Shown here piece after piece: positions 10,756 to 38,851 of a DNA stretch of 64,000 nucleotides. Source of the stretch: a virus. The notes below the pieces were generated by a model that was not told where the DNA came from, did no database searches, and saw nothing but the letters and a program-made list of their open reading frames with translations. The position numbers and the translations under genes were made by a program. Each line of letters begins with the position of its first letter. The stretch's first letter is position 1. Location: IMG/VR virus record IMGVR_UViG_3300044714_000074, positions 9,016-73,015 of that record. One strand, given 5' to 3'.

Positions 10756-10946
10756 CGCGCCTGCTCCTTTGCGGCGGCGTCCCGCCGCTCCTGCGCCAGT
10801 TGATTATATTCTGGCGCCGTCATGTTGTGATCTTTCAGCCAGTCGAACTGCGTCTGAGTCATCGGTTTCTGCCCGACGCCCTGCATTCCGATTCGTTTCC
10901 ATGGAAAATCATCACTCGTTGCCATTTTGGTTTCATCCCGCGTCAT
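10752..10946 (-). CDS. hypothetical protein
   Basis: Coupled small ORF. Confidence 0.5.
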   Translation of the reverse strand: MTRDETKMATSDDFPWKRIGMQGVGQKPMTQTQFDWLKDHNMTAPEYNQLAQERRDAAAKEQAR

Positions 10947-12265
10947 GGCAGAACCCGGATGTAAACCTGGACGTTGGCCGTCGCCGGGCTACCTTCCGCC
11001 TCCGTGATGCGAAAATACAGCGTCGGGTAGCCAGCGGCGGTTACTGAAATAGTCGAAACTCCGGAGATGTGCTGAAAATTGTTGGCGGTGGCGTCCGCCG
11101 TCGCGCTCACCGTAACGGACGTACTGTTGACAAGAGCCACGCCGGCGCCGCCCGCCGCCGTGAACACTGCGGCGCCGGCCGAGGTCAGGGAGGCGGACGC
11201 GCCGGTGATGTTGACCGACTCGACGTAGTAACGGCTGAAGCCGGATACCGAGGGTACCGGAAACGAAGTGTCGGCGAGGTTGTTGAAATTTACGCTGCTC
11301 AGATTGATCGAAAAGCCGAGGCCGCCGACGCCAGCTTGCGCGATGGGCGAGAACGAGATGCCGCCGGTCGATCCCGGCAATAGAGTGTTGGGATCACCCC
11401 CGGCAGTATCAACAACGCCGCTGCGGGAATCGATCAGGTATTTCGCGGCGGTGATGCCAGAGAAGCCGCTGAAGGTGATGCCAGCCAGGTCCATGAAAGA
11501 ACCGTTGGTCATCGACACGACTTCGGTGAACGTCAGACTTGAGCCGCCCGTGATCGTAACGCCGGCATTGCTCGCTATCGAGCCGCCCTGAGTGCCATCA
11601 AACAAAGTAGTTGCGCTTGAGATGACGGATAGGTTGCCGTTGAAGATGATAAGCGCGCCAGCGTATGACGCACGAAGCATGGCCGTCCCGCTGCAATCCA
11701 GCGTCAGACCGGCCGCATAGACTATGGCGCTGTTGGCGACGATGCAGCCGTGAGTACCTTCAACTTGCAGGTTTTGGATTTGCCAGACTGAATTGACGTT
11801 GCGGGCTATGAAGGTCGGCTCAGTGGTGCAGTCGATAACGACATTAGATGGCGTCGAGGCATCGCCTGCGATGATCGCCTGCGGCGTCAGATTGTTGCCG
11901 AAGTTCGAGTTGCTGGCGAAATCAGGGAGAGCCTCGCACTCGTTATAAGTGCCATCGGCCAACTGGAACGTAAGAGTTTGATTGCCGAGATCGTAGAGCG
12001 GCGGGATCACGGTCAGCGCGTTCGCCAGCGTCTTGCATGGTGTCGTCGGCGACAGACAGCTGTTGCTGTCCGAGCCGGGCTGACAAGTAAACGCGCCACA
12101 CGGAGACGTTGACGATGACGAATTGACATAAGCCGTCAACGACGCCGCGAGCAAAATTTTGGTCGGCTGTGGTGTTGGCTGTGGACCGGGTCCAGGTCCG
12201 GGACCCTGCGCGAGGGCGGTTGAGCCGATAACCGCCGCGACGATCATTGCGAGGATAAATTTCAT
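10943..12265 (-). CDS. beta-helix tail-fibre/tailspike-like protein with a Sec signal peptide
   Basis: MKFILAMIVAAVIGSTALA|Q; YV...GSDSNxxLS...TL..AL...QLADGTY motif of pectin-lyase-like fibre domains; position after the baseplate genes. Confidence 0.7.
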   Translation of the reverse strand: MKFILAMIVAAVIGSTALAQGPGPGPGPQPTPQPTKILLAASLTAYVNSSSSTSPCGAFTCQPGSDSNSCLSPTTPCKTLANALTVIPPLYDLGNQTLTFQLADGTYNECEALPDFASNSNFGNNLTPQAIIAGDASTPSNVVIDCTTEPTFIARNVNSVWQIQNLQVEGTHGCIVANSAIVYAAGLTLDCSGTAMLRASYAGALIIFNGNLSVISSATTLFDGTQGGSIASNAGVTITGGSSLTFTEVVSMTNGSFMDLAGITFSGFSGITAAKYLIDSRSGVVDTAGGDPNTLLPGSTGGISFSPIAQAGVGGLGFSINLSSVNFNNLADTSFPVPSVSGFSRYYVESVNITGASASLTSAGAAVFTAAGGAGVALVNSTSVTVSATADATANNFQHISGVSTISVTAAGYPTLYFRITEAEGSPATANVQVYIRVLP

Positions 12266-12267
12266 CT

Positions 12268-12597
12268 TTAATAGACCACGACGCTGAATTTGTGACCGCC
12301 AGTTGCGGCGTTTACGCTGGTATTCGTAGTTTGGCCAGGAATCAGTTGCCAGATGCCGCCGGGAGGAATCCGGAAGTTGGTGCCGTTCACCCCGCCGGCA
12401 ACGGTTGGACTCGCCGCGGCACCGACAGGGTTGATGACGAGATCCTCGGCGGCGGGCAAGTTGCCCTGATCGGCCGCCGACACCGGGTTTTGGATGAAGC
12501 CGCCATTTGGACCAGCGGCAACCGCGATCACCGGCGTGCCGCCGACGGTGACGACGGAGGCGGCGCCAGCGACGGGAGTGACGGGATTAGCCGCCAT
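12268..12597 (-). CDS. small virion protein, paralogous to the N-terminal domain of 14632-15708
   Basis: Shared ANPV...GG..NP..A.DQG...PGG...QTT..SVNAAT.GHKFS. Confidence 0.75.
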   Translation of the reverse strand: MAANPVTPVAGAASVVTVGGTPVIAVAAGPNGGFIQNPVSAADQGNLPAAEDLVINPVGAAASPTVAGGVNGTNFRIPPGGIWQLIPGQTTNTSVNAATGGHKFSVVVY

Positions 12598-12598
12598 G

Positions 12599-13993
12599 TC
12601 AGCCGACCATTCTTAGTTCGGCGGCGACGTTGTCGTTCGCCGGCTCCAGGGCGCTCATCTCTTCCCAGACATGCAAATTGCAAACTGGGGTTCCGGCGGC
12701 GGTCGAGCACCACGTCGTCGTGTTGGTCGAGCTGTTCTTCACGCAGACCTCGTAGGTCTGTTGCGATGACGTGTTGGGCGCATCATAGGCATCGGCCGTG
12801 ACCGAGAACACGCCGACACCGGATAAACTCAATGGCAATGTGTTTCCCACTGCAGTGGTGCAGGCGCCGCTGCCGCCGGACGCTCGAAACACTTGCCACG
12901 TTCCGTCGCTGCCGGACAGGGCGGCCGTTCCGATCGCCTGGATGTGAATCAAGTTGGCCGCGCTAGTCGGCGTGATCGAAACGGCAGGAGCTCCACCGAC
13001 GTAGGATGTCGTGGATGACTGCGTCTGCGACGATGTCGACACGACCAAATGCTGCACGATGTCGCCGGCCTTCTTCACTCCGGGACCCATGAGTTGAACA
13101 TATGTCGGACCGGTAGCCCACGTCCCCGCCGTCGACTCGGCGATGTCGATGTAGCCAATCTCGCGAACCGCCACGTTGGAGAGCGACGATGTCGAGCAAT
13201 AAGGCGTTTGCGCTGAGCTGCCGCCGGTCGTCCCGCTGGCGCTGCTTTGAAGCGCTTGCTCGTTGATCCCGACGATGCTCGGCCCCGACGAGTTCACGGA
13301 ATTGTAGGCACACAGCGCGACCGTCCCGGCGTTGTTCGCCAGATAGACGCGGAGCCGGCAAAATATGCTGCTGCTCTGGCAACCCATGGTGTGAGTCGAC
13401 GCTATGGTGATGCTGAGCGCGCCGGTGATCGATTCGAAGACCGGATCGCCGTTCGCGATCGTCGCGTCGCGAAAGGCGACGAGGATCGGGTTCGACGCGC
13501 TGGCGTTCGACCCGTTGTTGCCGACGACCGCGATGGTCAGAGCGTTCGTCGACACCGTGGCGTTGATCTGAAGGTTCGGCGGCATGTTGAAGCCGAGCGA
13601 CGAGTTTCCAACCGTCGACGCCGTGGTCGGCAGGTTGACCGGACCGAGCACCACGAAGCAGGAACTGTTGTAGGTCAGCAGGATCGGTTGACTGGTCACG
13701 ATCTCGCCGCCGACAAGCGTCGTCGTCCCGGCGCCGTTCGGTTTGCAGAAGTGCGGCGGTGATCCGAAGCTATTGACGTTGAGCGTGGCATCGCCGGTGT
13801 TCGAGGCACCGGGATTGTAGATGATGATCGCGCTGACAAGATCGGCGTAGGACAGGACCTGCGGCGGCAGCGTGAGAGTCTGCGTGTTCGCTGAGCCGGC
13901 CCCGGTCCCGGCGTAGGTCGGAAACTGCGCGGCCGCCGGCGCCAGCATGGCTCCGAAGAAGAGTGCCGCAGCGACGAGGATTCTAGCGATCAT
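12599..13993 (-). CDS. tail-fibre-like protein with a Sec signal peptide (true start 13993)
   Basis: MIARILVAAALFFGAMLAPAAA|Q; GSANTQTLT...NTGDATLNVN fibre domain; C-terminal GDIVQ...SITPTSAANLI...DAPNTSSQQTY domain; ATGA overlap with the upstream gene. Confidence 0.75.
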   Translation of the reverse strand: MIARILVAAALFFGAMLAPAAAQFPTYAGTGAGSANTQTLTLPPQVLSYADLVSAIIIYNPGASNTGDATLNVNSFGSPPHFCKPNGAGTTTLVGGEIVTSQPILLTYNSSCFVVLGPVNLPTTASTVGNSSLGFNMPPNLQINATVSTNALTIAVVGNNGSNASASNPILVAFRDATIANGDPVFESITGALSITIASTHTMGCQSSSIFCRLRVYLANNAGTVALCAYNSVNSSGPSIVGINEQALQSSASGTTGGSSAQTPYCSTSSLSNVAVREIGYIDIAESTAGTWATGPTYVQLMGPGVKKAGDIVQHLVVSTSSQTQSSTTSYVGGAPAVSITPTSAANLIHIQAIGTAALSGSDGTWQVFRASGGSGACTTAVGNTLPLSLSGVGVFSVTADAYDAPNTSSQQTYEVCVKNSSTNTTTWCSTAAGTPVCNLHVWEEMSALEPANDNVAAELRMVG

Positions 13994-14625
13994 GGCTTGT
14001 AGCTCCAGACGTTGCTGCCGTAGTAGCGGAAATAGGCGCACTGCCCGTTGACGTTCAGTTGGACGGACGCGGCATCGGCGATCGTCATGCCGGCCGGGGC
14101 GTTCACCGTCACCGGATAGGCGTTGAAGTTGTGGTTGAGATCCTCGATCGCGTAAAGCTGACCGGCTACCGCCGCCGAGGGAAGCGTCGTCGAAGATGTC
14201 GCCAGCGACGTGCTGCGGTTGAGCCCCACCGCACCGCCGGCGTCGGCAGTCGACATCGTGAAGGCGCCGCTCGCAGTGACGATGCGTGACGGTGACAGCG
14301 AACCGGTCTGCTGGAGCGCGGCCATCTGGCCAGCCGTGAGGAGGTTCGCGAAGAGATCGCCGGCGAGCCACGTCTGCGCGACGGTCCCTTCCTGGGCGCG
14401 CACCATCGTCGTGATGGTATCGCCGGAGATCGCTGTGCAGTAGACGATCTCCGTCAGCAGCCCGGTCGCGGCGTCGTTGAAGGTGGCGGCGAACTCCTGG
14501 CCGGCGCTCGGCGTCGGGAAGAGCGCCCCGGTGCCGGAGGCCAAGGTGACGGAGGTCGCCGCGGCCGAGATCGGGCCGGCGATCGTCGTTGACGCATCGT
14601 TGGCGAAAATGAAAGCGGTCACCAA
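13990..14625 (-). CDS. baseplate-proximal tail fibre / adaptor protein
   Basis: FANDASTTIAG..S...TSVTL..GTGALFP...EIV.CTA...RAQEGT N-terminal fibre-attachment motif. Confidence 0.75.
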   Translation of the reverse strand: MVTAFIFANDASTTIAGPISAAATSVTLASGTGALFPTPSAGQEFAATFNDAATGLLTEIVYCTAISGDTITTMVRAQEGTVAQTWLAGDLFANLLTAGQMAALQQTGSLSPSRIVTASGAFTMSTADAGGAVGLNRSTSLATSSTTLPSAAVAGQLYAIEDLNHNFNAYPVTVNAPAGMTIADAASVQLNVNGQCAYFRYYGSNVWSYKP

Positions 14626-14631
14626 GCCCTC

Positions 14632-15708
14632 CTAGACCGCCACGATGAACGTGGCTTGAAACGGCAAAGCAAGAACGCCCGAATCGATGCCCTCTTTGAG
14701 TACGCTTGCCAGGGCCGGCGGGTTCGGCCCGCTGTTGAATTGCGTGACCAGGTGGTTGAACGCCATCCTGTTGTAGCCGAATCGGTTGAACAATGCACCC
14801 CCGAGAATCGTCCTCGAGCCGCCGCCGAGCCGGATGGCGACGACACCGTCGCTGCCGAAACTGACGTCGACGATGTAGGTCTGGTCGATGTTCGGAGCCG
14901 TTCCCTGCGGACCGTAGAGGAATCGCATGATCCGGCGCTTCAGCCAGCGGACGTTGAAGACGTTCCCGTCGCCCTTGTAGAAATTCCAGGTGATGATCCG
15001 CTTGAAGACGTCGTCGGAGGTCGCCGTCACGTTCGACGGGCCCACGACCTTCGTCGCGTTGAAGGCGTGCGTATTGAAGGCGAAGGTGTTGTAGGGACCG
15101 ATGTTTCGGTTCCGGCCCGAAGACAACGCCGGCCGAACGAACCCGTAAAGCCCCTCCGCCACCCAGTCCAGCAGCGAGCCGACGATCTGCGCGCCGGTAT
15201 AGACCGGCAGGCCGATCGTGGCGAACCACGTCACGTAGCTTTGCGCGAGCGCGTTCCAGGAAGCGACGAAGGCCTGGAGGTTGTCGTCGTCGGCGTACTG
15301 AACGTAGAGGTACGATGGGATCAGCGCGGTCAGCGTCGTCGGCCCCGCCGGCGGGAAGGTGCCGGGCTGCGGCGTCGGCGGGTACGGCGTCTGAGGCTGA
15401 AGGACGTAGGCCGAGAACTTGTGTCCCGATGTCGCCGCGTTGACGCTGACGCTCGTCGTCTGGTTCGGGATCGTGAAGGCGCCGCCGGGCTGGATCGGGA
15501 CCGACGTCGCGGTCTCGCCGACTGTCGCGTCCGCACCGGTGATGTCGACATAGAGTGGCTCGACGATCGCGATGCCCTGATCCTCGGCCATCGCCGGGTT
15601 GAGGATGGCGCCGCCAAGGACCGGGCCGAAGACAGCCGTGACGGCCTTCCCGCCGACAACAACCTCGCTGGCGACCGGGGCGTAGAGCGATACGGGGTTG
15701 GCGCCCAT
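14632..15708 (-). CDS. baseplate wedge protein (DUF2612 / gpI-like) with an extra N-terminal domain
   Basis: PSYLYVQYADD, GSLLDWVAEGLYG, SDDVFKRIITW motifs; follows baseplate J. Confidence 0.75.
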   Translation of the reverse strand: MGANPVSLYAPVASEVVVGGKAVTAVFGPVLGGAILNPAMAEDQGIAIVEPLYVDITGADATVGETATSVPIQPGGAFTIPNQTTSVSVNAATSGHKFSAYVLQPQTPYPPTPQPGTFPPAGPTTLTALIPSYLYVQYADDDNLQAFVASWNALAQSYVTWFATIGLPVYTGAQIVGSLLDWVAEGLYGFVRPALSSGRNRNIGPYNTFAFNTHAFNATKVVGPSNVTATSDDVFKRIITWNFYKGDGNVFNVRWLKRRIMRFLYGPQGTAPNIDQTYIVDVSFGSDGVVAIRLGGGSRTILGGALFNRFGYNRMAFNHLVTQFNSGPNPPALASVLKEGIDSGVLALPFQATFIVAV

Positions 15709-15730
15709 CGTTAATGTTTACTTTCGTTTT

Positions 15731-16375
15731 TTAGATCGCAACACAAGAGAACTGTCCGGTCGGCGTGCGGGCCATAAAATATTCGTTGATTCGACTCTGC
15801 ATTTGGCGAAGGCATCCACAGCTTCGAGTATTACCGCTCATCAGCGATTTAGCCGCGACCATGATCTCGTTGCCGCAATCGCAGTGAGCGAGCCAGCGTC
15901 TTTGACCACGTCCAGCATCGAATTTTCGCGGCAAAACATGCAAGACGGTCAAATGACCAAATTTTTGACCAGAAAGGTTTTTTCTCATCCGACAGCCACA
16001 TGATCTGGCGCGACCACAGTTCAACAATTTTATTTGAATTGCCGATTCGGCACCGCAATCACATTTGCAGAGCATCCATCCGCGTCCAGCTGTGGCCATA
16101 ACCGTAAGCTGACCAAACCGCCTGCCGATTAGATCGCGTCGCAATTTTCTGCATCCGCATGTTTTGAGACCGCCCTTGGTCAGAACACTAAGCGGAACCT
16201 TTCTATAATTTCCGCAATCGCAACGGCACATCCAACCTCGATTAGCTTTCCCGGTAATGACCAGCATTCCAAAACGAGAACCAACAGGCGATTGAATCTG
16301 TTCTGCTGGTGACGATATGGGTCCACCAACAAATTCGACTGGAAAGCCAAAACCCTTGCGCCGAATGCTTCTCAT
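15731..16375 (-). CDS. homing-endonuclease-associated protein with three CxCDCG repeats
   Basis: Three G.RFG.L.V...W.C.CDCG...SCGC repeats; lower GC than its neighbours. Confidence 0.7.
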   Translation of the reverse strand: MRSIRRKGFGFPVEFVGGPISSPAEQIQSPVGSRFGMLVITGKANRGWMCRCDCGNYRKVPLSVLTKGGLKTCGCRKLRRDLIGRRFGQLTVMATAGRGWMLCKCDCGAESAIQIKLLNCGRARSCGCRMRKNLSGQKFGHLTVLHVLPRKFDAGRGQRRWLAHCDCGNEIMVAAKSLMSGNTRSCGCLRQMQSRINEYFMARTPTGQFSCVAI

Positions 16376-16387
16376 TGACTCGTCCTA

Positions 16388-18204: not shown

Positions 18205-18211
18205 GGTATCG

Positions 18212-19312: not shown

Positions 19313-19327
19313 CGATGACCCCCGACT

Positions 19328-20353: not shown

Positions 20354-20448
20354 GGGAAAAATTCGTCCGCCAGAGCGACGAGCGGAATCAACGGCTTAAC
20401 GTCGAAGTGGACGACTTCTTGGGAAAATCTATTTTTTTCGTCCACCCT

Positions 20449-22027: not shown

Positions 22028-22028
22028 G

Positions 22029-24487: not shown

Positions 24488-24503
24488 GTAACGATTCCGA
24501 GGT

Positions 24504-30951: not shown

Positions 30952-30954
30952 GGC

Positions 30955-31308: not shown

Positions 31309-31323
31309 TGCGGCGACTCCCTG

Positions 31324-31785
31324 TCAATCTATCCAAGCGTGAAACGATGCCTGATACAAGCCCGTATCGATGAAGCTAGGCCGTCTCGGACCTTTTCTCA
31401 ACTTGAGCCTGTGGTTGACGCCTTTTAGCGCCGCCTGGGTCGGCACGCCGGGATAGCCAAGTGCTTCCATCTCCTTGTTCGATAGAAACATCTTGAAGCG
31501 GTCCTCGATCTCCGAAGTCGCGGTGCCAAAAGGATCGTTCGACGGCGGCGCGCCGAGCAGGACGTTCTCCAGTGCGCCTTCCAGGGAGTTCTCCAAGTAG
31601 CCGGCGATGTCGGCCTGCCGCTCCTGAAAGAAGATTTCCATGATGTGGTAGCGGTTCTCAAGAAATTCAGCCACGTCGCCAGTCGTCACTGTGCTGGCCG
31701 AAGTCTTGCGGCGACGACGCCCCTTCCGCGGTGGCGGCTGGGCTTGGTTGTAAGGCAAATCTGCGACACCTAAATGGAGGATCAC
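31324..31785 (-). CDS. neck / tail-completion protein
   Basis: LHLGV, TTGDVAEFLE, GVPTQAA, RPSFIDTGLYQ motifs; GTGA overlap. Confidence 0.7.
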   Translation of the reverse strand: MILHLGVADLPYNQAQPPPRKGRRRRKTSASTVTTGDVAEFLENRYHIMEIFFQERQADIAGYLENSLEGALENVLLGAPPSNDPFGTATSEIEDRFKMFLSNKEMEALGYPGVPTQAALKGVNHRLKLRKGPRRPSFIDTGLYQASFHAWID

Positions 31786-32579
31786 TGCACTGTCTCTGCA
31801 TATCGCCAATGATATTTATAGGCGGAACGCCAATGGCCGCGTTTTCGACATACCGCAACAATAGCAGATGGTGAGGCTTTGGACTCGCCCTTCGATTTAA
31901 GCCAATCGACTGCAGCACGAACGGTCAAAAATAATTCTCCTGTCTCTTCGCAAATCACCTTTCTAGCCATTGGATGATTCCCACCATGATAAGTGGGCGG
32001 ACGATTTCCATTCTCAAGAGAGATACGACGTTTCTTTTCTCTATATTCCTTTTTTGAGGCTGTCATGATTATTGACGCATTGCGACGCGCAATCATCTCT
32101 AGGTTTTTATTTAGTCTGCGAGCGACCTCTTGTTTTTTAGGAAGCACTCGTTGAGCGCTTTCAACCATTGCAGCTGTATGTTTTGCTTTATATTCCGGGT
32201 CTTTATATCTCAACAACATAGTTTCGCTTCGCCGCTGCTTTACTTCCGGTAATTTATTTGTCGCCCTAAGTGTTGCGGCGCGTTTTTGAATAAGTTCTGG
32301 CACTAATCGAATGCCATCTCCACCATTCGTCAAATTTACTAGCCTCGCCCCGAGAGCCCTGAACTGAGCGATCAGCTTCATTTCATGATCAAAAGCGTTT
32401 TTCTCTTTGGCCCAATACTCAACAATTTCGACGATGAAACCTTTTTCCGCTGCGCGTTCACTCCACAATTTGCTTCGCCGGTTGGTATCCCAAGCTCTTT
32501 TGCGCGTTCCCTTCCCTACATAGAAAACGCCAGCGATTCTGCTGACACCAGATTGCCTATGAATGTAAGTGTAAAACAT
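31782..32579 (-). mobile_element. free-standing GIY-YIG-like homing endonuclease with NUMOD-type DNA-binding tail
   Basis: FYTYIH...FYVGKG...RAW...E..LI...LVNLTNGGDG; KVICEETGE...SAYKYHWRY; AT-rich. Confidence 0.8.
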
Positions 32580-32662
32580 CGGGCCATTATAGCTCGATTC
32601 CCTCAAAAACACCTAAGTGAAGCGTCAGCATCGTCACGCCGCCTTGTTGAGCCACGCCGGGG

Positions 32663-35600
32663 TCATCGGTAGGTCGCCAAGATTCCGCTCGGGGTGACGT
32701 TCATAATCTGGCTGGAAAACGGAATGTCGAATATGGCACTCGCACACTTCGTGACAAGGGCCGGTGCGATGGTCGGTACGATGAGATCGTTGGCGCCAGC
32801 TAGAATCGTAGGCGTCGCGTTGTATGTGGCGCAATAGACCAAGGCGCTTCCCTTAACATAAGGGACGGTGCTCACGCCGATTTTCTGGACGGCGTTGCTC
32901 GCCAATCCGGTGAATAAGTAGACGTAAGCACCGCGCGAGATGCCGGCACCGCTTCCCCAATTGATAGTGACCGTGACAGTTCCCGAATTGGCCGGGATCA
33001 CGGCGCTGAAGATGAACTCGTTGGTACTGTTGCTTACGTCCGGGACGCTGATCGTGATGTTGCCAGCCCAGCCGGGGCCGGTTCCGCCGCTAAGCACGAC
33101 GGTGCTGATCCCCGGCGAGTTCTGTGCCCCGCAGGCAAAGACGGCTAACCCTGCGGCATTGTTTCCGAACGCGGCGGTGAAGGTCTGCGCGGCTGGCGTC
33201 CCGTTGTAGAAATTTGATGCGATAAACGAATAGGTACCAGTCGCCGCTAGGGTGGGATCAACATATGGACCGAGCACGTTCTGTTCGATGATGCCCTGCC
33301 ATTTGGCAGTGCTCTCATCACCGGGAAAATACCGCAGGCCGATCCATGCCAACGAACCGAGTTCAACAAATTGCGCTGGGTACGGCGCGTTGCCGCCGAT
33401 CTGGCCGCCGACTCCCCCGCCGCAGGCTTCATAAAGCGCCGCATAGCATGCCTCTACGGTATAGGAACCAGATTGTCCGGTGTCCCAGGCCCAGTTCATC
33501 ATATAGCTGAGAAATTGGCTGTTGCCTCCAAGCCCAGAACCGAGAGAGCCCCACAAATTGCTGTCGAGGGCGCCCCCAAGACTTGAGCCGCCCTCATAGA
33601 AGCCGAGTCGAATAGGCCCGGTGCCATAGATCACCCCGAAGGTGTCGGAGATCAAAGCCTGCTGCTGGATGAACGACGGCACGCTGTTGGCGAACGTTGG
33701 CGAGAGGCCGCTGCCAGACGCCGTAGTGGCGTAGCCGTTATCGGCGGCGCCAATCATGATAGACTCGGAGATTTGCTCCGCGAAATACGTATAGATCGTA
33801 GGGTATTGGCTTGGGCTTGACGTGTGATTCGCGGCGCCGTTGTCCATCAGATCAAACAGCAGACCGTTGGCCGCATAGCCGGAATACTGGCCCGTGTTCG
33901 AATAGGTCAGACCTGTCGTGTTGATCGCGCCGCTTCCGCTGTTGCCGCCGTAGTTGGTGAACGAGAAGCTTGATGTCGTCGCCGCCGAGAGGACCACGTC
34001 CTGATTGTTGAGCAGCGAGCCGATTGTCCCCGCGCCGGTGTTGCTAAAGAAAAGCCGGACGATTTGTGCGGCGGTCAAGCCGGCGGCTGTTGCGGTCGTC
34101 GCTTGGCTTGTCTGATAGACGCCGGCGCCGCCGGCTGTGCCGGAAATCTGGCCGACGATGAAGGTGCCAGCAGGCACGCCGCTGCCGGTCAATAGAGCGC
34201 CCGGCGCGATGGTGCCGGTAACGCTGGTGATGGCAAGCTGGTTGCCGCTTGCCGTGCCGGTGAAAGTCGCTAAGCTGAACGGATTGCCGCCAGTACCGCA
34301 CTGGCAGGTTGTCGTGGTCCCAACGCTTACGCTGGAAAATGAGCCGTTGTTGGCGCCGATCCCGGTGCTGCTCTCTCCATTGGCGAAATAAACCGCCATG
34401 TCCATTTCGTCGAACAAATTGCTTAAATTTAACCCGGCCGGAACGCCGCTGACACCGGGATTGTTGATAGCATACAGGGCGCCGGCAAACCCGGTCGTCG
34501 ATACCGCTATGTTGGTTGCTTGAGTGCCAAGAGCACCGCGCCAACGCGACCGCTGCGTCGGTCCATAGACCGCGTTGACGATAGCCCAAAGCTGCGCAGT
34601 TCGGTAGCCGGCAAAGGCATAGGCTTGGCCCGAGGTCCCGGTGCCGGGATAAATCTGCGCCTCGCAGTAGTAAAAATTACCCTGCGCGAAGTTCCAATTT
34701 TCGTTGCCATATTCGAACTTGACCCAAAGATTGGAGTTTAAGTTCGATTGAAAAAATTGCGCGATAGCCTGCATCCCGGCATTCGTCATCGCGTTCGGGA
34801 TGTTGTAGTGGACGTTGCAGCCGGTCAGGTTGGCGAGCTGACAGATGATGCTCGGATGCACACCGCTTTTTGGTCCATAGGGGCCGTTATACGAGCCGAC
34901 GATGGCCAACGAAGTCATCGCCTCAGACGCGACGGTCTGAGAAATGTTGACCTGGTAGGTTCCGTTCGACCCAGTCGAGCCCGTGAGCTGCTGGACGACT
35001 ACGGTTCCGGCCGCGAGCGCTCCGGTCGTATCGGATAACGCGACGTTCGGCCCGACGTTGCCCACATCGGCCGCAACGAGCCCGCTCACTGTCAACGTCG
35101 TACCGGAGATTGCACCCGTGAAGTAGGCTTGTCCTCGACCGTATTGAGCAATTGAGTTGTAGTTTGCGTCGGCAAACTGCGAGATGTCACTGATCCCGCC
35201 GCCATCAATGATGTCGTTCCAATCCATGAAACGCAGGACGCCGAACGGTTGAACGTCGGCAACCCAGTCAGGATTAAAGTATTGCCCGGCCGCGACGTTG
35301 GCCGCATACTTGGACTGGAAGATTTTTATGTTATGCGGCGGGTCGCTTTTGTTGGTAACCGCGAACTGGACGCCGAGATTGTTCACCCCGGTCGTACCTA
35401 GCGTTATTGTGCCGCTGTTGGCGCCGAACGACGACGAGCCGCCGCTGCCGGGGTTCCCGGTCAATGTCGCCGTCGCGGTGCCGCTCCATTCGACGGTGAA
35501 CGTCGCGCCATACCACCACGGATTGCCGCTTAACGAAATGTATTGATAGAACGGTGTCGGCGTGAAAAAGATGCGACTTATAGAGGTCACATCGGACGGG

Positions 35601-35914
35601 CACGGGTTGTTCAATTCCCCGGTGCTCGGGTTGAAGTAGGCGGTCCCGCCGCCGGGCGATGCGGTGCCCACCGCGTTCCACGCCGCTTGACTATTTACCG
35701 TCCCGTTGAGTGTGCTGACGACGGTAGTCGTAGAGGCCGTCAGCCACCAGTTTAGAAATGGCACCTCGCCGGTATAGTAGGAAACGCCGCCGACATTCAT
35801 CAGCATGCCGCCGCTGGTCTGTGGCGGGATTCCGTGAACAGGCCATGCTGCGGCTGGCGACGTTGCGACCAGCGTCGCGGCCAGCGTGGCGGCCAGGAAC
35901 TTGCGGCGCGACAT
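32663..35914 (-). CDS. large Tat-signal glycoside hydrolase (clan GH-A-like) / depolymerase
   Basis: MSRRKFL...SPAAA|W twin-arginine signal; LRFMDW, HYNIP, EYGNENWN (acid/base), FYEGG (nucleophile). Confidence 0.7.
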   Translation of the reverse strand: MSRRKFLAATLAATLVATSPAAAWPVHGIPPQTSGGMLMNVGGVSYYTGEVPFLNWWLTASTTTVVSTLNGTVNSQAAWNAVGTASPGGGTAYFNPSTGELNNPCPSDVTSISRIFFTPTPFYQYISLSGNPWWYGATFTVEWSGTATATLTGNPGSGGSSSFGANSGTITLGTTGVNNLGVQFAVTNKSDPPHNIKIFQSKYAANVAAGQYFNPDWVADVQPFGVLRFMDWNDIIDGGGISDISQFADANYNSIAQYGRGQAYFTGAISGTTLTVSGLVAADVGNVGPNVALSDTTGALAAGTVVVQQLTGSTGSNGTYQVNISQTVASEAMTSLAIVGSYNGPYGPKSGVHPSIICQLANLTGCNVHYNIPNAMTNAGMQAIAQFFQSNLNSNLWVKFEYGNENWNFAQGNFYYCEAQIYPGTGTSGQAYAFAGYRTAQLWAIVNAVYGPTQRSRWRGALGTQATNIAVSTTGFAGALYAINNPGVSGVPAGLNLSNLFDEMDMAVYFANGESSTGIGANNGSFSSVSVGTTTTCQCGTGGNPFSLATFTGTASGNQLAITSVTGTIAPGALLTGSGVPAGTFIVGQISGTAGGAGVYQTSQATTATAAGLTAAQIVRLFFSNTGAGTIGSLLNNQDVVLSAATTSSFSFTNYGGNSGSGAINTTGLTYSNTGQYSGYAANGLLFDLMDNGAANHTSSPSQYPTIYTYFAEQISESIMIGAADNGYATTASGSGLSPTFANSVPSFIQQQALISDTFGVIYGTGPIRLGFYEGGSSLGGALDSNLWGSLGSGLGGNSQFLSYMMNWAWDTGQSGSYTVEACYAALYEACGGGVGGQIGGNAPYPAQFVELGSLAWIGLRYFPGDESTAKWQGIIEQNVLGPYVDPTLAATGTYSFIASNFYNGTPAAQTFTAAFGNNAAGLAVFACGAQNSPGISTVVLSGGTGPGWAGNITISVPDVSNSTNEFIFSAVIPANSGTVTVTINWGSGAGISRGAYVYLFTGLASNAVQKIGVSTVPYVKGSALVYCATYNATPTILAGANDLIVPTIAPALVTKCASAIFDIPFSSQIMNVTPSGILATYR

Positions 35915-35999
35915 TCCGCGCCGCTCCCGGCGCGACGTGCTTACCGCGAGGAAGGTTGATACGTAGAGCGAGGCGATAAATTTTTTGATTTCGAACACA

Positions 36000-37217
36000 T
36001 CAGCCGCCGATGATGTGGCCGCCGCCACCGACGACTGGTGGATTGATTGTAAAGCCGCTGTTGCCCCCGTTATCTGACGAGTTAGTCGTCGTCAGCGTAC
36101 CGGTCCCGGTTATCTTGAAGCCTATAAAGTTGCACCATGTGCAGGACGAATTGGAACCGATTGAAAGGGTTGCCACCCCGGTGCTATTCGCGATCATGCC
36201 CAACTGCGCGCCGCTGGTGCCCGTACCCGTGATTGCTCCCGTGACCGTCGTAGTGGCGTTGTTTGGAAACTCAATGAGGTTCGCCCCGGTCAATGTCATG
36301 GACGCGAAGGTCGCGCCGCCACCGACGAAACTGACGCTATTGTTGGCTGTCGAGATCGGACTAGCGTTTCCAGTTATTGTTATCGCGCCGAATATTGATC
36401 CGGCTGTTGTGAAAGTGCGACCGCTCGTCGGCGTAGCCCCAGGAGTAACGATGAGCGACGCCGACGAGCAGCTTATTGTCCCGCTGACATTCCAGATCGT
36501 GCTGCCATTGGTATCGAGCGTCCATGTACCGGAACCGCAATTTATACTGCCAGCACCAGCCACCGAGCCGATGGTCACATTGGAGTTATTCGTTGTCGCA
36601 TCAACCGTTCCCGCCGTGAGCGTCAGCACATAGCTTAAGGTCGAAGTCGAATTAATACCGTCCTCTAGCTCAAAGAAGCCGCCCGACCCATTGAATGTGA
36701 CGTTCTCAAGCGTGTTGTGAGACGGGTTGGTCCAGATTGTTGTCGGACTGACGGACGTGCCGGTCGTTGACGTAAATGCGATAGTGCGATTGGACCCTTC
36801 TGACAAAGTCAGACTGGCGTTCAAATAGAAATAATTTCCCGCCGTCGTTATGACGGTGCCGGTCGCCGTAATGGATAGCGTCCCAGCAAAGGCACCCTCG
36901 CCGTCACCAGACAGGTTCGTGTCGAGACTGTTGATCGTGATTGCGGCGGCAACGGTGGATGTGCCGGCGGTGAAGCCATCGAGCACGATGTCGTCGTAGG
37001 GTGAGCTCGTTGCTGGAGTACAGGCGCACGATAAGCCGCCCGGCGTGGCCGACCACGCTGTAATCGTCCCCCAGTTCGTTCCCCCGATCCAGTAACAGGT
37101 ATGGGCGCCCCCATGAACCGCCGTGCCGGTGCAGTTCGCCTCGGCCGGCGTCGGCACCAGCGCCGCACCAATCCAGACGCAGAGCGCGACGAGCGCGAGG
37201 CGGAGGAAGGTTTTCAT
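36000..37217 (-). CDS. Thr/Gly-rich beta-helix adhesin-like protein with a Sec signal peptide
   Basis: MKTFLRLALVALCVWIGAALVPTPAEA|N; YWIGGTNW...WSATPGG...P...DD motif. Confidence 0.7.
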   Translation of the reverse strand: MKTFLRLALVALCVWIGAALVPTPAEANCTGTAVHGGAHTCYWIGGTNWGTITAWSATPGGLSCACTPATSSPYDDIVLDGFTAGTSTVAAAITINSLDTNLSGDGEGAFAGTLSITATGTVITTAGNYFYLNASLTLSEGSNRTIAFTSTTGTSVSPTTIWTNPSHNTLENVTFNGSGGFFELEDGINSTSTLSYVLTLTAGTVDATTNNSNVTIGSVAGAGSINCGSGTWTLDTNGSTIWNVSGTISCSSASLIVTPGATPTSGRTFTTAGSIFGAITITGNASPISTANNSVSFVGGGATFASMTLTGANLIEFPNNATTTVTGAITGTGTSGAQLGMIANSTGVATLSIGSNSSCTWCNFIGFKITGTGTLTTTNSSDNGGNSGFTINPPVVGGGGHIIGG

Positions 37218-37384
37218 TTTGTCACCGTACAGGTCAGCCCGATCCGCCAGCCTTCCAGGCAAAGCTGCTCCGGCGTCATAGGCTGCGAGAAGATCAGCAT
37301 CTTTGCGGGTGGCTGATAGTTATGTACGACGCTCAGAAGCATCACGCACCAAAATGCGACAATGGTGGCCAACACAAACTTCAT
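37214..37384 (-). CDS. small membrane-anchored protein (56 aa)
   Basis: Manual translation MKFVLATIVAFWCVMLLSVVH...; ATGA overlap with the downstream gene. Confidence 0.55.
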   Translation of the reverse strand: MKFVLATIVAFWCVMLLSVVHNYQPPAKMLIFSQPMTPEQLCLEGWRIGLTCTVTK

Positions 37385-37387
37385 GGC

Positions 37388-38851
37388 TCAGTTGTACCCG
37401 ATGGTCAGCGACATCGCCGACGCCGTGGCGTTCGTCGTGTCGTTCGTCGCGTAGCCGCTGGTGACGCAGATGCTGATGCCGGTCGAGAACGGGATGCCGA
37501 ACGGCAGCGGGATGTTGATGCCGCCGACCGAGGTCGAGGCCGGTATCTGGATTTGAGCGATCAGGTTCGTTGCACTACCGCAGCCGTTGAAGCCCGACGC
37601 GGCGTTGTAGAACCGCAGATAGTTCACCGTGGCAGAATTGTTCTCGGCGAGAATCCAATAGACCTGGCCGGCGCCGTTCTTGACGTTGGTGTGGTTGTCG
37701 CTCGCCGCCGGCTGCAAGAAGTACGTCGTGTAGCCGCCCGAGGTCACCAGCGAGGGAACGACGCCGTTGCCGTTGGCGACGGTCGGGGTCGTGTTCAGCG
37801 ACATCGGCTGCGGCGTGCCGCTGGCGACGCCTTGGACACTTAGAACTTGCGTCGATGGTGTTCCCGCCGTGCCCGGCGCCGAACCCGCGATGGTGGTCGT
37901 GTCCTGCCCGACCGCGACGCGCAAGGTGCCAGTGCCAACAGCACCGGCTCCCACCGACGCCGTCGCCCCACCGATCTGAGTCAAGTTGACCGACTGGTTG
38001 GCGACCAGGGCACCGATGACATTGGTGCCGGCCGGGATGCTGGATTGAACGGCGGTTATCAGCGCTGAAAGCTGGTTGTAGAGTCCCTTGAGCAGCGCAA
38101 CAACCGACCACGCATTGGTGCTGTTGTTCGCGGCGCTATCGGTCGTCGAGCCCTCTGCAGTATCGGCACCGTTGGCGATGGTGACGGCACCGCCTCCACC
38201 GCCGCCACTGCTTCCTGTGCCGCCAGCGAACTGCGCGCAGCTTGTCATCTGCGTCAGGTTGACTTTCCCCGTCCCGGTCGCGGCGAAGACCGCCAGCGTG
38301 GTTGCCGGGCCGACGTTCAAAATGCAGAGGCCGCCCGTCGGCAACACCGGATTCGATGCCGACGCCGTGATGTTCGACGCGCCAAGCGCATAGTTGACGT
38401 TCACCGTGGTGCTCTGATCAGGGACGATCAGAAGCGCCGGGAAACTCTTCGTACTGGCAGGTAGCGCAACGCTGGCGGAAGTTGCGCTGCTCGACGTCGC
38501 CGATGCGCCGAGATTGCTGACCGACTGCGCGGTGGCGAGGCGCGGAGCGAAGCAGAGCGCCGCGGCGATCAACCCGGCGATTGCGATCTTGCCGAGATGC
38601 TTCATGTAGGTCCCGCCTTTCACCTTGGCGAGATGCTCGTCGACGAGCGCCTCGGCCTTCTCCGCATCATCGCACGATTCCCCGCCGATCACAGCCGCGA
38701 TCTCGAGGAGCGGGAGACCGCCATGCGCCGCGAGGAATTGCAACGTCCGGCCGGTCGTCTTCTCGATCGCCGCGCGGTGCGGCTCGACCAGATTCCACGG
38801 AACGCTGGTCCGCTTCTCCGATCCGGTCACCGGGAACGTCAGTCCGATCAT
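37388..38851 (-). CDS. head/neck fibre-like protein; signal peptide begins at internal Met 38605
   Basis: ATGA-coupled start at 38851; MKHLGKIAIAGLIAAALCFAPRLATA|Q; Gly linker, short coiled segment, C-terminal beta domain. Confidence 0.65.
   Translation of the reverse strand: MIGLTFPVTGSEKRTSVPWNLVEPHRAAIEKTTGRTLQFLAAHGGLPLLEIAAVIGGESCDDAEKAEALVDEHLAKVKGGTYMKHLGKIAIAGLIAAALCFAPRLATAQSVSNLGASATSSSATSASVALPASTKSFPALLIVPDQSTTVNVNYALGASNITASASNPVLPTGGLCILNVGPATTLAVFAATGTGKVNLTQMTSCAQFAGGTGSSGGGGGGAVTIANGADTAEGSTTDSAANNSTNAWSVVALLKGLYNQLSALITAVQSSIPAGTNVIGALVANQSVNLTQIGGATASVGAGAVGTGTLRVAVGQDTTTIAGSAPGTAGTPSTQVLSVQGVASGTPQPMSLNTTPTVANGNGVVPSLVTSGGYTTYFLQPAASDNHTNVKNGAGQVYWILAENNSATVNYLRFYNAASGFNGCGSATNLIAQIQIPASTSVGGINIPLPFGIPFSTGISICVTSGYATNDTTNATASAMSLTIGYN

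What the first reader, a model, noticed from the sequence alone, without database searches (positions are those of the whole stretch)
10943..38851. Five fibre/adhesin/depolymerase genes in the virion operon carry export signals, with even Cys counts in the Sec-type ones: candidate periplasm-matured virion appendages
Seen in the sequence: Sec-type signal peptides on 10943-12265 (ALA|Q), 12599-13993 (AAA|Q), 36000-37217 (AEA|N) and from Met 38605 (ATA|Q), plus a Tat signal on 32663-35914. All five sit in tail-fibre or neck positions of the late operon, most with overlapping or abutting start/stop codons. By hand count the mature Sec-type proteins have 8, 10, 8 and 4 Cys, often closely spaced (CQSSSIFC, CTWC, CSTAAGTPVC). 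Established: tailed-phage virions assemble in the reducing cytoplasm and their fibres normally lack signal peptides. Inference: these appendages are exported, oxidatively folded in the periplasm and attached to particles at lysis. Alternatively, virion-derived domains have been repurposed as lysogen surface or secreted proteins. I do not know of a described system of this kind.
Basis: partly seen in the sequence, partly recalled or inferred. Interest (0 to 1): 0.9.

Follow-up and report, generated by a model that had tools for sequence, protein, structure and literature searches.

The report
Phage tail-fibre proteins carrying export signals
A soil phage with a contractile tail puts ordinary bacterial secretion signals and paired cysteines on five fibre-like late proteins, one of them the outer half of its tail fibre, so part of its host-recognition gear probably folds outside the cytoplasm where the particle is built.

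Summary
All five minus-strand genes start with canonical signals: four Sec-type, one twin-arginine (SRRKFL). The mature Sec proteins hold 8, 10, 8 and 4 Cys.

The signals are conserved in relatives:
- B family: 75 of 119 by a strict home-made test, and 70 of those 75 have even Cys counts.
- D family: 6 of 6.
- E family: 123 of 149.
- Tat family: 8 of 13.

B (12599-13993) is the distal part of a split tail fibre. Its first mature domain matches the segment that follows the anchor in leaderless fibres of related phages (hhalign 97.6%). The anchor is now a separate 211-aa gene just upstream.

B ends in a tail like the host-lineage tmRNA tag ANDNYAPVA(Q/L)AA. In the fetched loci this tail occurs only on signal-bearing proteins (21 of 21 evaluable).

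E, D and the Tat protein form a mobile 7-kb cassette that 6 of 6 checked relatives lack at this site.

Export and oxidative folding are well supported. Attachment to particles at lysis is untested.

This scan has noted the same phenomenon on other DNA. My five paper searches found no description.

The parts
13990..14625 (-). fib211: leaderless 211-aa tail-fibre anchor protein, directly upstream of B with an ATGA stop/start overlap
   Evidence: PHROG tail fiber families phrog_8469 (E 2.8e-17) and phrog_30299. Residues 1-100 are 46-58% identical to residues 1-105 of the leaderless 356-386-aa fibres of L008, L009 and L013. Overlap seen.
12599..13993 (-). B: Sec-signal protein of 464 aa with 10 mature Cys; the exported distal part of a split tail fibre
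13928..13993 (-). B signal peptide (residues 1-22, AAA|QF)
   Evidence: The AxA|QF site is conserved in alignment A1 (P19, A22, Q23 and F24 are each in at least 90% of rows).
13628..13912 (-). B first mature domain (residues 28-122), homologous to the post-anchor segment of leaderless fibres
   Evidence: blastp 31-35% identity, E about 1e-6. hhalign probability 97.6%, E 2.8e-12, B 29-123 against fibre 119-210. Also matches Pa193 baseplate/tail-fibre chain 9b45_2 at Z 8.3, 25% identity, 91 aligned.
12650..13075 (-). B C-terminal TNF/C1q-like jelly-roll head (residues 307-448)
   Evidence: Model mean pLDDT 79.6. VIA-align: 9ib6_A Z 13.6, rmsd 2.2, 119 aligned; 4jdn_A Z 12.8; 8okw_C Z 12.0. Foldseek: Pgp3 and PLTL at probability 1.00.
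12602..12646 (-). B C-terminal tail EPANDNVAAELRMVG, resembling the host-lineage tmRNA (SsrA) tag
   Evidence: The model is disordered here (pLDDT below 50 for residues 450-464).
12268..12597 (-). adp: leaderless 109-aa protein with no Cys, a free copy of the N-terminal domain of the wedge protein 14632-15708
   Evidence: Alignment A4: 50% identity to window 15391-15708 and 61-68% to the same gene in L014-L017.
15391..15708 (-). N-terminal adp-like domain of the baseplate wedge protein (gene 14632-15708)
   Evidence: The domain is absent from the wedge proteins of L004, L008, L009, L010 and L013, where matches start near residue 117-120.
10943..12265 (-). A: Sec-signal protein of 440 aa with 8 mature Cys; signal, then a GP/PT-rich linker, then an orphan body
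   Evidence: The same slot in L014 and L015 holds 1229- and 1253-aa proteins with a signal plus a GP-rich linker. The last 121 aa are 42% identical to a roughly 165-aa signal-bearing ORF in L060.
12209..12265 (-). A signal peptide (residues 1-19, ALA|Q)
37388..38605 (-). E: Sec-signal protein of 405 aa from Met 38605, with 4 mature Cys. The reading frame is open upstream to the ATG at 38851.
   Evidence: The 82-codon extension has GC3 0.84.
38528..38605 (-). E signal peptide (residues 1-26, ATA|Q)
37391..37744 (-). E conserved C-terminal beta-sandwich domain with two invariant Cys
   Evidence: Alignment A2 has invariant C424 and C462 in long-form numbering. Model pLDDT is about 85-94 over residues 370-487. 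The best structural match is only Z 7.9.
36000..37217 (-). D: Sec-signal protein of 405 aa with 8 mature Cys and a C-terminal GGGHIIGG
37137..37217 (-). D signal peptide (residues 1-27, AEA|N)
   Evidence: conserved in 6 of 6 homologues.
32663..35914 (-). Tat protein: 1083 aa with a twin-arginine signal and 11 Cys; fold and activity not established
   Evidence: No family or PDB-sequence hit.
35846..35914 (-). Tat signal peptide (residues 1-23, SRRKFL ... AAA|W)
31782..38851 (-). 7-kb block (E, D, Tat protein, g31782) inserted between two neck genes that are adjacent or nearly adjacent in relatives

Best explanation
All five proteins leave the cytoplasm late in a lytic infection: A, B, D and E by Sec, and the 1083-aa protein by Tat. 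The Sec ones fold with disulfide bonds in the periplasm. They come from two modules.

**Module 1: a split tail fibre at the end of the baseplate operon.** The order is leaderless anchor fib211, exported B, leaderless adp, exported A.
- B is the distal part of the fibre, cut off from its anchor.
- It has gained a signal peptide, two conserved disulfides, a TNF/C1q-like lectin-type head and a C-terminal tail that resembles the host's tmRNA degradation tag.
- I infer that this tail marks copies that fail to be exported for destruction by cytoplasmic proteases.

**Module 2: a mobile cassette (E, D, Tat protein)** inserted between two neck genes.

**How it most likely works.** The exported proteins accumulate in the periplasm. 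They meet the cytoplasm-built particles only when lysis mixes the compartments. B, and probably A, then dock on the anchor fibre or baseplate. The E-D-Tat proteins act as free or loosely attached factors that bind or cut envelope polysaccharide.

**Shown here:** the signals, their conservation, the Cys pairing pattern, the fibre origin of B, the tag-like tail, and the cassette's mobility.

**Inferred:** actual export, disulfides, the degron function, and docking at lysis.

My odds for the separate steps:
- export: 0.9
- periplasmic disulfides: 0.8
- B descends from the distal fibre: 0.85
- tail acts as a degron: 0.4
- B joins the particle at lysis: 0.4
For: **Signals and Cys.**
- Searches give the signals and Cys counts.
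- B family, lenient test: 89 of 120 listed homologues have a signal. Mature Cys is even in 75 of 89 (median 6), against 16 of 31 (median 2) without a signal.
- B family, strict test: 75 of 119 have a signal, and 70 of those 75 have even Cys.
- In alignment A1, C205, C212 and C266 are in at least 90% of rows. Signal-less P0061 has lost all four conserved Cys. P0074 has lost the 228/266 pair together. P0007, P0009 and P0051 lack C228 and carry a Cys at another column.

**Fibre origin of B.**
- fib211 matches PHROG tail fiber families.
- fib211 residues 1-100 match fibre residues 1-105, and B residues 28-122 match residues 123-214 of the same leaderless fibres.
- hhalign gives 97.6% probability, E 2.8e-12.
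- Those relatives carry one 356-386-aa fibre plus a Tfa chaperone and no exported genes.
- The fib211-B module recurs in L014-L017, L021, L078 and L079.
- B's head is TNF/C1q-like (Z 13.6, 12.8, 12.0).

**Tag-like tail.**
- Host-lineage tmRNA tags are ANDNYAPVAQAA and ANDNYAPVALAA. A second tmRNA in one genome gives ANDNVALNEVRLAA.
- B ends in ANDNVAAELRMVG.
- 66 of 120 B homologues have such a tail. In 58 of those 66 it is 11-13 aa long, against 12 for the tag.
- The tail is on 60 of 89 signal-bearing homologues and 1 of 31 signal-less ones; that one is a fragment.
- In the loci, 22 tail-bearing ORFs: 18 pass the strict signal test, 3 have a signal with a long n-region by eye, and 1 is cut by the locus end.
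- The same tail sits on unrelated exported proteins: the L014 1229-aa protein, the L099 1152-aa protein, and D-family P0149.
- Passages of PMC3985003 say that tagged proteins are degraded by ClpXP, ClpAP, Lon and FtsH in the cytoplasm and by Tsp in the periplasm.

**Cassette.**
- In relatives the two neck genes lie 3 bp to 1.15 kb apart; here they are 7 kb apart.
- E and D are adjacent in 7 of 22 viral loci.
- Large Sec/Tat-signal proteins lie downstream in L099 and L108.

**Lifestyle.** No integrase or resolvase was found.
Against: - No experiment or dedicated predictor shows export; the signal calls are my own rules.
- No known tailed phage adds exported parts to its particle, and the two compartments meet only at lysis.
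- B's tail ends in MVG (51 of 66 family tails end in VG, only 4 in AA). The passages I read say ClpX recognises the C-terminal ALAA, so B's tail may not be a ClpX degron.
- The same tag is also a target of periplasmic Tsp, which could work against the exported form.
- 29 of 89 signal-bearing B homologues have no tail, and neither do A, D, E or the Tat protein here.
- The Tat family has 5 of 13 members without any signal.
- E, D and the Tat protein are absent from 13 sheath-anchored related loci and from 4 complete related records. They are therefore not needed to build this kind of particle.
- A has no full-length relative in two collection scans.
- The folds of A, D and the Tat protein are unknown.
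Confidence: 0.45

Rival explanations
1. The proteins are exported but never become part of the particle. They act on the envelope of the infected cell or as soluble factors released at lysis. Lectin-like heads (B, E) and a possible glycosidase (the Tat protein) would bind, mask or destroy the phage's own polysaccharide or protein receptor. That would stop progeny being lost on debris, or block superinfection. Alternatively they clear capsule or EPS around neighbouring cells. This is the logic of T5 Llp, or of free depolymerase.
For: - E, D and the Tat protein are a mobile accessory cassette missing from close relatives and linked to each other in unrelated phages.
- Arrays of 4-7 consecutive signal-bearing genes surround E-D in L096, L107, L108 and L110.
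- L107 has a leaderless protein with a fibre-type N-terminus and an E-like end next to a signal-bearing E-domain gene. Virion and exported copies of one head domain can therefore coexist.
- A passage of PMC6116005 says haloes come from virions and/or free enzymes.
- The heads are lectin-like.
Against: - B keeps the very domain that follows the anchor in intact fibres, and sits with ATGA coupling behind a truncated anchor gene that has lost its own distal part and its Tfa chaperone. This looks like a division of one virion part, not a new accessory.
- Soluble copies of the receptor-binding head released with the progeny would compete with the progeny for new hosts.
- No enzymatic family was recognised for any of the five.
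Confidence: 0.4
2. The genes are lysogenic-conversion morons: surface or secreted proteins made by a lysogen from their own promoters, as with lambda Lom and Bor.
For: - The genes are variable cargo inserted in a structural operon.
- GC3 of A (0.71), D (0.68) and the Tat gene (0.72) is lower than in most backbone genes, which run 0.83-0.93.
- A distant B-mid-domain homologue lies in a 180-kb Bradyrhizobium contig (L082).
Against: - No tyrosine or serine recombinase was found in a record rated 100% complete, while the same searches ring in 14 of 14 and 12 of 14 control genomes.
- Three of four related records are classed as having direct terminal repeats.
- A and B are translationally coupled to late genes.
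- Promoter-like and terminator-like sites do not exceed shuffles.
Confidence: 0.05
3. The proteins are not exported. The N-terminal hydrophobic stretches are uncleaved membrane anchors, or result from wrongly chosen starts, and the proteins assemble in or at the cytoplasm.
For: - E's frame is open 82 codons further upstream, to an ATG that overlaps the adaptor stop. The public gene call uses that long form (P0157, 487 aa), and the extension has coding-like GC3 of 0.84.
- Ribosome-binding sites before the internal Met codons are weak.
Against: - Homologues start directly with the signal: 123 of 149 for E, 6 of 6 for D and 75 of 119 for B.
- The AxA|Q site is conserved.
- Cys parity tracks the signal.
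- A degradation-tag-like tail restricted to signal-bearing forms makes sense only if they leave the cytoplasm.
Confidence: 0.05

Closest known systems
Leaderless P2/Mu-type tail fibres with a Tfa chaperone in related contractile-tailed phages (L008, L009, L010, L013)
   Same: They share the N-terminal anchor with fib211 (46-58% identity). The next domain is shared with B (31-35% identity; hhalign 97.6%). The genes sit in the same place after the wedge gene.
   Different: There, one 356-386-aa cytoplasmic protein with 2-4 Cys is followed by a tail fibre assembly protein. Here the fibre is split: the distal part has a Sec signal, 10 Cys, a TNF-like head and a tag-like tail, and no Tfa gene follows.
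Bdellovibrio bacteriovorus MAT (mosaic adhesive trimer) fibres (PMC10769870; passages read)
   Same: Phage-fibre-like proteins that work outside the cytoplasm. Their swappable tips include TNF-like domains with disulphides. The Bd2734 tip matches B's head at Z 12.0, rmsd 2.3, 118 aligned.
   Different: They are cellular proteins displayed on a predator's surface, not phage-encoded and not next to baseplate genes. There is no detectable sequence relation (8% identity in the structural alignment).
Exported accessory proteins of tailed phages: T5 Llp, lambda Lom and Bor, phi80/N15 Cor, PBSX XepA (recalled from my own knowledge, except XepA, which appears as PDB 6i56)
   Same: Phage genes with signal peptides placed in or beside tail, fibre or lysis genes. 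Llp-type proteins protect progeny from the receptor.
   Different: As I recall them, Llp, Cor and Bor are small lipoproteins, Lom is an outer-membrane protein, and none derives from a fibre. Here the proteins are 405-1083 aa, fibre-derived or fibre-like, and form multi-gene arrays. The XepA match to E's domain is only Z 7.3, which is generic.
tmRNA (SsrA) degradation tag of Bradyrhizobium-type bacteria
   Same: Both start with ANDN and have the same length (12 aa for the tag; 11-13 aa in 58 of 66 B-family tails). Related tails on other exported phage proteins end in AA, for example NDNSPAWLAQAA and ANDNAPPWLSKAA.
   Different: The tail is encoded in the gene, not added by trans-translation. 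B-type tails end in MVG, not AA. No degradation was tested.
Filamentous phage (Ff) coat proteins pIII and pVIII (recalled)
   Same: Virion proteins made with Sec signals, with periplasmic disulfides in pIII.
   Different: Those particles are assembled at and extruded through the membrane without lysis. Here the head and contractile tail are of the cytoplasmic, lysis-released kind.

Membership tests
Sec-type signal peptide | Positive n-region, uncharged hydrophobic h-region of about 10-15 aa, and small residues at -3 and -1 (AxA) | tested here: met
   A, B, D and E all show the pattern. My strict rule set passes 75 of 119 B, 6 of 6 D and 123 of 149 E homologues. SignalP was not available.
Twin-arginine (Tat) signal peptide | S/T-R-R-x-F-L-K-type motif before a mildly hydrophobic h-region and an AxA site | tested here: met
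   MSRRKFLAATLAATLVATSPAAA|W. An RR motif also occurs in 6 of 13 homologues; 5 of 13 have no signal.
Periplasmic disulfide-bonded protein | An even number of Cys, conserved in pairs | tested here: met
   Mature Cys counts are 8, 10, 8 and 4. Counts are even in 70 of 75 signal-bearing B homologues. Pairs are lost or moved together in A1. E's domain has two invariant Cys.
Periplasmic disulfide-bonded protein | Cys side chains juxtaposed in the structure; dependence on DsbA | not testable with these tools
   Model coordinates are not returned by structure prediction, and no experiment was possible.
Myophage tail fibre (P2 gpH / Mu gp49 type) | Homology to a fibre's body domains | tested here: met
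   B residues 29-123 against leaderless fibre residues 119-210: hhalign 97.6%, E 2.8e-12. B's middle domain is shared with many leaderless fibre-like proteins.
Myophage tail fibre (P2 gpH / Mu gp49 type) | N-terminal baseplate anchor on the same polypeptide | tested here: not met
   The anchor is on the separate protein fib211. B starts with a signal peptide.
Myophage tail fibre (P2 gpH / Mu gp49 type) | Presence in the virion | not testable with these tools
   No cultured relative exists: B has one weak match (30% identity over 35% of the query, E 1e-4) and E has none in 50,697 GenBank phage records.
TNF/C1q-like trimeric lectin head | Ten-strand jelly-roll fold | tested here: met
   9ib6_A Z 13.6, rmsd 2.2, 119 aligned; 4jdn_A Z 12.8; 8okw_C Z 12.0. 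Trimer formation and sugar binding were not tested.
SsrA (tmRNA) degron | N-terminal ANDN part, and the overall length of the host tag | tested here: met
   Host-lineage tags are ANDNYAPVA(Q/L)AA. B ends in ANDNVAAELRMVG. In 58 of 66 family tails the length is 11-13 aa.
SsrA (tmRNA) degron | C-terminal (L)AA recognised by ClpX | tested here: not met
   B ends in MVG. 51 of 66 family tails end in VG and 4 in AA. By my count of the printed tails, the tails on other exported families end in AA in 5 of 9 cases.
SsrA (tmRNA) degron | Degradation by ClpXP/SspB or Tsp | not testable with these tools
   Inference only. The general facts come from passages of PMC3985003.
Moron / lysogenic-conversion gene | Own promoter and terminator, expressed from a prophage | tested here: inconclusive
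   Promoter-like and terminator-like sites do not exceed shuffles. No integrase or resolvase was found. The scans are simple consensus scans.
Glycoside hydrolase / depolymerase (Tat protein, A, D) | Match to a catalytic family or fold | tested here: inconclusive
   No Pfam, NCBIfam or PDB-sequence hit for the proteins, for 9 of 10 scanned Tat homologues, or for profile A3.

The most novel reading that the evidence does not exclude
A tailed phage builds the outer part of its host-recognition apparatus in the periplasm. The distal tail fibre and further fibre-like proteins are exported and oxidised by the host's Dsb system. A built-in copy of the host's tmRNA 'destroy-me' tag polices them: any copy left in the cytoplasm is degraded ('export or die'). 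The particle is completed only in the moments after lysis mixes the two compartments. The same tag-plus-signal design on several unrelated protein families in many uncultured soil phages would make this a general assembly route in its own right.
Probability: 0.35. Interest if true: 0.95.

Novelty: new variant of a known kind. Interest (0 to 1): 0.8.

Why it matters
Textbook assembly of tailed phages takes place wholly in the cytoplasm. If receptor-binding parts are exported, folded with disulfides and added after lysis, several things follow:
- Host range would depend on the host's Sec, Tat and Dsb systems and its proteases.
- Fibre genes with signal peptides should no longer be dismissed as mis-annotations or morons.
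- Oxidised, robust fibres could explain persistence in soil.

A genetically encoded mimic of the tmRNA tag, restricted to exported proteins, would be a new kind of compartment checkpoint. It can be tested directly in clpX, sspB and prc mutants.

The E family alone has 4019 representative clusters at E up to 1e-3 and no annotation.

Tried and rejected
**Family and structure searches that gave nothing usable.**
- Pfam, PHROG and NCBIfam gave no passing family for any of the five. The only rows were phrog_21413 at E 0.0023 for the Tat protein and a sub-threshold ArfA row for E.
- phmmer against PDB sequences for A, D, E and the Tat protein, and profile A3, gave nothing credible.
- The protein atlas gave no usable hit for the Tat protein. 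For E it gave only unnamed, mostly viral clusters.
- E's C-terminal domain has no structural match above Z 7.9 (PR772 6q5u_O; XepA 6i56_D at Z 7.3). I treat this as a generic beta-sandwich.

**A has no full-length relatives.** Single-protein scans of viral contigs and metagenome contigs found none. Comparison with the L014 and L015 giants matched only the signal plus linker.

**P0061.** I wanted the context of this signal-less B homologue. The scan returned only loci that share its different C-terminal domain, so its neighbourhood stays unknown.

**Complex prediction.** Mature B with adp gave 'no answer' (score 0.00, controls not run). I draw nothing from it.

**Cys-Cys distances.** They could not be measured because model coordinates are not returned.

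**Rejected readings.**
- Mis-called starts: homologues start at the signal.
- A sortase-type C-terminal sorting signal for the tail: no transmembrane stretch follows the motif.
- An outer-membrane beta-signal: no terminal aromatic residue.

**Correction to my notes.** My notebook says E-D adjacency was seen in 8 loci. The count is 7 of 22.

**Literature.** Searches (listings and abstracts only) found no paper that describes Sec or Tat signals on tailed-phage fibres, or tmRNA-tag-like ends on phage proteins. Subscription journals and supplements were not searched.

Full report
**What the window is.** The window is 64 kb of a 73,015-bp virus record that CheckV rates 100% complete and that IMG/VR classes as linear. 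The finding lies in one long minus-strand operon. That operon has the genes of a contractile-tailed phage:
- sheath, 24963-26600 (phrog_205)
- baseplate wedge, 16388-17830 (phrog_6)
- hub, 19328-20353 (phrog_196)
- a tape-measure-like protein with a transglycosylase end, 22029-23720

The portal is at 50497-52059 and a major-head-like protein at 40093-41118. The sheath is 37-44% identical to unnamed proteins of 14 GenBank phages, including Klebsiella phage Chronis, Pantoea phage PdC23 and Yersinia vB_YenM phages. No tyrosine or serine recombinase was found, although the same searches ring in 14 of 14 and 12 of 14 control genomes. No tRNA or tmRNA gene is present. Full-length relatives of protein B occur in contigs of Rhizobiales and Xanthobacteraceae MAGs (L078-L080), so a Bradyrhizobium-type soil host is likely.

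A, B, D and E each have a basic n-region, an uncharged hydrophobic core and an AxA-type site. The 1083-aa protein starts with SRRKFL before a milder core and AAA|W. Mature Cys counts are 8, 10, 8 and 4, and 11 for the Tat protein. The three close-spaced Cys motifs are there. Cys density is three times that of 21 backbone proteins (1.53 against 0.52 per 100 aa). None of the five has a passing Pfam, PHROG or NCBIfam family. 'Fibre', 'adhesin' and 'depolymerase' were therefore guesses that needed testing.

**Conservation of the signals.**
- *B family.* B has at least 185 relatives at E up to 1e-3, of which 120 are listed. With a lenient home-made test, 89 of the 120 have a signal. With a strict one, 75 of 119 do.
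- *Cys parity in the B family.* Among strict positives, 70 of 75 have an even number of mature Cys (median 6). Among the other 44, 25 are even (median 2.5). That group includes some true signals the strict test misses.
- *Cys pairs in alignment A1 (31 sequences).* The site AxA|QF is nearly invariant. C205, C212 and C266 are in at least 90% of rows. The one signal-less member (P0061) has replaced all four conserved Cys. P0074 has lost the 228/266 pair together. Three members that lack C228 carry a Cys in another column.
- *D family.* Six relatives; all six keep the signal, the N-terminal Cys cluster and the end GGHIIGG.
- *E family.* It is very large: 4019 representative clusters at E up to 1e-3, sharing a C-terminal domain of about 120 aa with two invariant Cys. 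Of the best 149, 123 pass the strict signal test. The nearest atlas clusters are 85-95% viral. Yet E has no match in 50,697 GenBank phage records.
- *Tat family.* Thirteen relatives: 6 with an RR motif, 2 more with a Sec-type signal only, and 5 with none.
- *A.* It is an orphan. Its last 121 aa recur in a small signal-bearing ORF of L060. Its slot in L014 and L015 is filled by 1229- and 1253-aa proteins that start the same way, with a signal and then a Gly/Pro-rich linker.

**B is the outer part of a split tail fibre.**
- The gene just upstream of B (13990-14625, 'fib211') overlaps B's start as ATGA. It matches PHROG tail fiber families (phrog_8469, E 2.8e-17).
- In more distant relatives (L008, L009, L010, L013) the wedge gene is followed by one leaderless fibre of 356-386 aa and a tail fibre assembly protein (phrog_188). 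No signal-bearing gene is present.
- fib211 residues 1-100 match residues 1-105 of those fibres (46-58% identity). B residues 28-122 match the next segment, 123-214 (31-35%, E about 1e-6).
- A profile comparison of the B family with three such fibres gives 97.6% probability and E 2.8e-12 for B 29-123 against fibre 119-210.
- The signal peptidase site therefore sits just where the post-anchor domain begins.
- The B model (mean pLDDT 79.6) ends in a TNF/C1q-like jelly roll (residues 307-448). It matches a Photorhabdus lectin (9ib6_A, Z 13.6, rmsd 2.2, 119 aligned), Chlamydia Pgp3 (Z 12.8) and the tip of the Bdellovibrio fibre Bd2734 (Z 12.0).
- Its first domain also matches a chain of the Pa193 baseplate/tail-fibre complex (Z 8.3, 25% identity).
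- The module fib211, then B, recurs in L014-L017, L021, L078 and L079. In six of these seven it comes with two copies of a small domain: one fused to the N-terminus of the wedge protein and one free ('adp', 12268-12597).

**A tail that looks like the host's degradation tag.** B ends in EPANDNVAAELRMVG.
- alpha-tmRNA genes were found in 4 of 4 genomes that hold B-family loci.
- ARAGORN reads their tags as ANDNYAPVAQAA (once) and ANDNYAPVALAA (three times). A second, divergent tmRNA in the Bradyrhizobium genome gives ANDNVALNEVRLAA.
- In the B family, 66 of 120 proteins have an ANDN-type motif in the last 22 residues. In 58 of those 66 the stretch from that motif to the end is 11-13 aa, against 12 for the tag. 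However, 51 of the 66 end in VG and only 4 in AA.
- A second form, (A)NDN-x-P-x-W-L-x-x-A-A, ends other exported proteins of quite different kinds: the 1229-aa A-like protein of L014, a 1152-aa protein in L099, D-family members in L096 and L107 and P0149, and others.
- The tail goes with the signal. It is on 60 of 89 signal-bearing B homologues and on 1 of 31 signal-less ones, and that one is a fragment.
- Among 22 tail-bearing ORFs in all loci, 18 pass the strict test and 3 have a signal with a long n-region by eye. The last is cut by the end of its locus.
[quoted passage not shown] They also say that ClpX reads the C-terminal ALAA and that SspB binds the tag.
- My inference is that the tail removes copies that stay in the cytoplasm. 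The MVG ending of B-type tails, and the sensitivity of the tag to Tsp, both count against a simple version of this.

**E, D and the Tat protein are a mobile cassette.**
- In 13 sheath-anchored related loci, none of the three is found.
- The two neck genes that flank them here (38848-39366 and 31324-31809) lie 3 bp to 1.15 kb apart in six relatives, against 7 kb here.
- D is absent from four related virus records rated 100% complete by CheckV, three with terminal repeats and one classed linear.
- Conversely, 7 of 22 otherwise unrelated viral loci found with the E domain have a D homologue right behind E.
- L099 and L108 continue with large Sec- or Tat-signal proteins. L096, L107, L108 and L110 show runs of four to seven consecutive signal-bearing genes.
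- L107 also has a leaderless protein with a fibre-type N-terminus and an E-like end. The E head domain therefore exists in both cytoplasmic and exported forms (by reading only).
- The E model is confident only for the C-terminal beta-sandwich. Structural matches stay below Z 8.
- Nothing identifies the activity of the Tat protein.

**Reading.**
- Export and periplasmic disulfide formation are the only simple explanation for three features that travel together across hundreds of divergent proteins: signal, Cys parity and tag-like tail.
- Lysogenic conversion is unlikely.
- For B, and by position for A, descent from the distal fibre favours a role on the particle. So do the truncated anchor, the lost chaperone and the extra small domains on the baseplate. 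The parts could only meet at lysis. That is physically plausible because fibre attachment is a late, spontaneous step (own knowledge of T4 in-vitro complementation).
- The rival is that all five act as free or envelope-bound factors that mask or destroy the receptor. It fits the mobile E-D-Tat cassette better, and nothing here excludes it for B.
- I put the split-fibre-plus-docking reading at 0.45 as a whole and the free-factor reading at 0.4.

**What is known.**
- Five literature searches (listings and abstracts) gave no description of secretion signals on tailed-phage fibres, or of tmRNA-tag-like ends on phage proteins.
- Passages of a review mention only exported endolysins and free depolymerase (PMC6116005).
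- The nearest described things are leaderless fibres of related phages, Bdellovibrio MAT fibres (PMC10769870), small exported phage accessory proteins, and the tmRNA tag itself.
- Earlier agents of this scan have reported the same phenomenon on at least eight other genomes. Those are unchecked notes, not independent evidence.

Noticed in passing
window 15731-16375 (-): A 214-aa protein with 16 Cys in repeated CxCG...SCGC units matches PHROG HNH endonuclease families (phrog_374, E 1.6e-34). It sits between the wedge gene and the next baseplate gene, which are only 15 nt apart in L001. It is probably an inserted homing-endonuclease-like gene.
   Followed up: partly
window 27044-29917 (-): Four genes lie between a neck gene and the sheath, where relatives have only about 400-700 bp. 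They are an unassigned 311-aa protein, a class I methyltransferase, an NAD-dependent epimerase-like protein and an unassigned 231-aa protein. This is a second cargo insertion in the structural operon.
   Followed up: partly
window 31782-32612 (-): A 276-aa gene at the downstream edge of the E-D-Tat insertion looks GIY-YIG-like to the eye, but Pfam gives no hit. Its first 144 aa are 40% identical to a stretch in L011 and L012.
   Followed up: no
L151 (Bradyrhizobium sp. genome G006, contig 12): A second, divergent alpha-tmRNA (165 bits against 312 for the main one) lies next to a tRNA-Gly. Its tag, ANDNVALNEVRLAA, resembles B's tail ANDNVAAELRMVG more closely than the main tag does. Whether it lies in a prophage was not checked.
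   Followed up: no
L096, L107, L108, L110 (viral contigs): Runs of four to seven consecutive genes that each start with a signal peptide surround the E-D pair. Several end in the ANDN-type tail. This looks like a widespread multi-gene exported module in uncultured phages.
   Followed up: partly
window 32663-35914, 24963-26600, 16388-17830: A small module of about 70 aa in the Tat protein is 50-64% identical to a stretch in proteins of about 600-700 aa (P0135-P0143). By their N-termini, read by eye, these look baseplate-like. The sheath and the wedge protein each carry an extra small domain of their own (phrog_9998, phrog_584). I did not test whether these are the same module.
   Followed up: no
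window 8306-9103 (-); L014 17345-18151; L015 18526-19341: A signal-bearing protein of about 265-270 aa sits in the lysis region here and in two relatives, with N-termini like ...AAAADMAVKA. NCBIfam gives no hit.
   Followed up: no
window 42133-44073 (-): A 646-aa protein in the head region starts with a NUDIX domain (PF00293, E 2.4e-13).
   Followed up: no
window 38606-38851 (-): The 82 codons between the adaptor stop and E's signal peptide are open, have GC3 0.84, and have no match in six relatives. Either E is made as a longer precursor with an internal signal, or a small upstream gene has lost its stop.
   Followed up: partly
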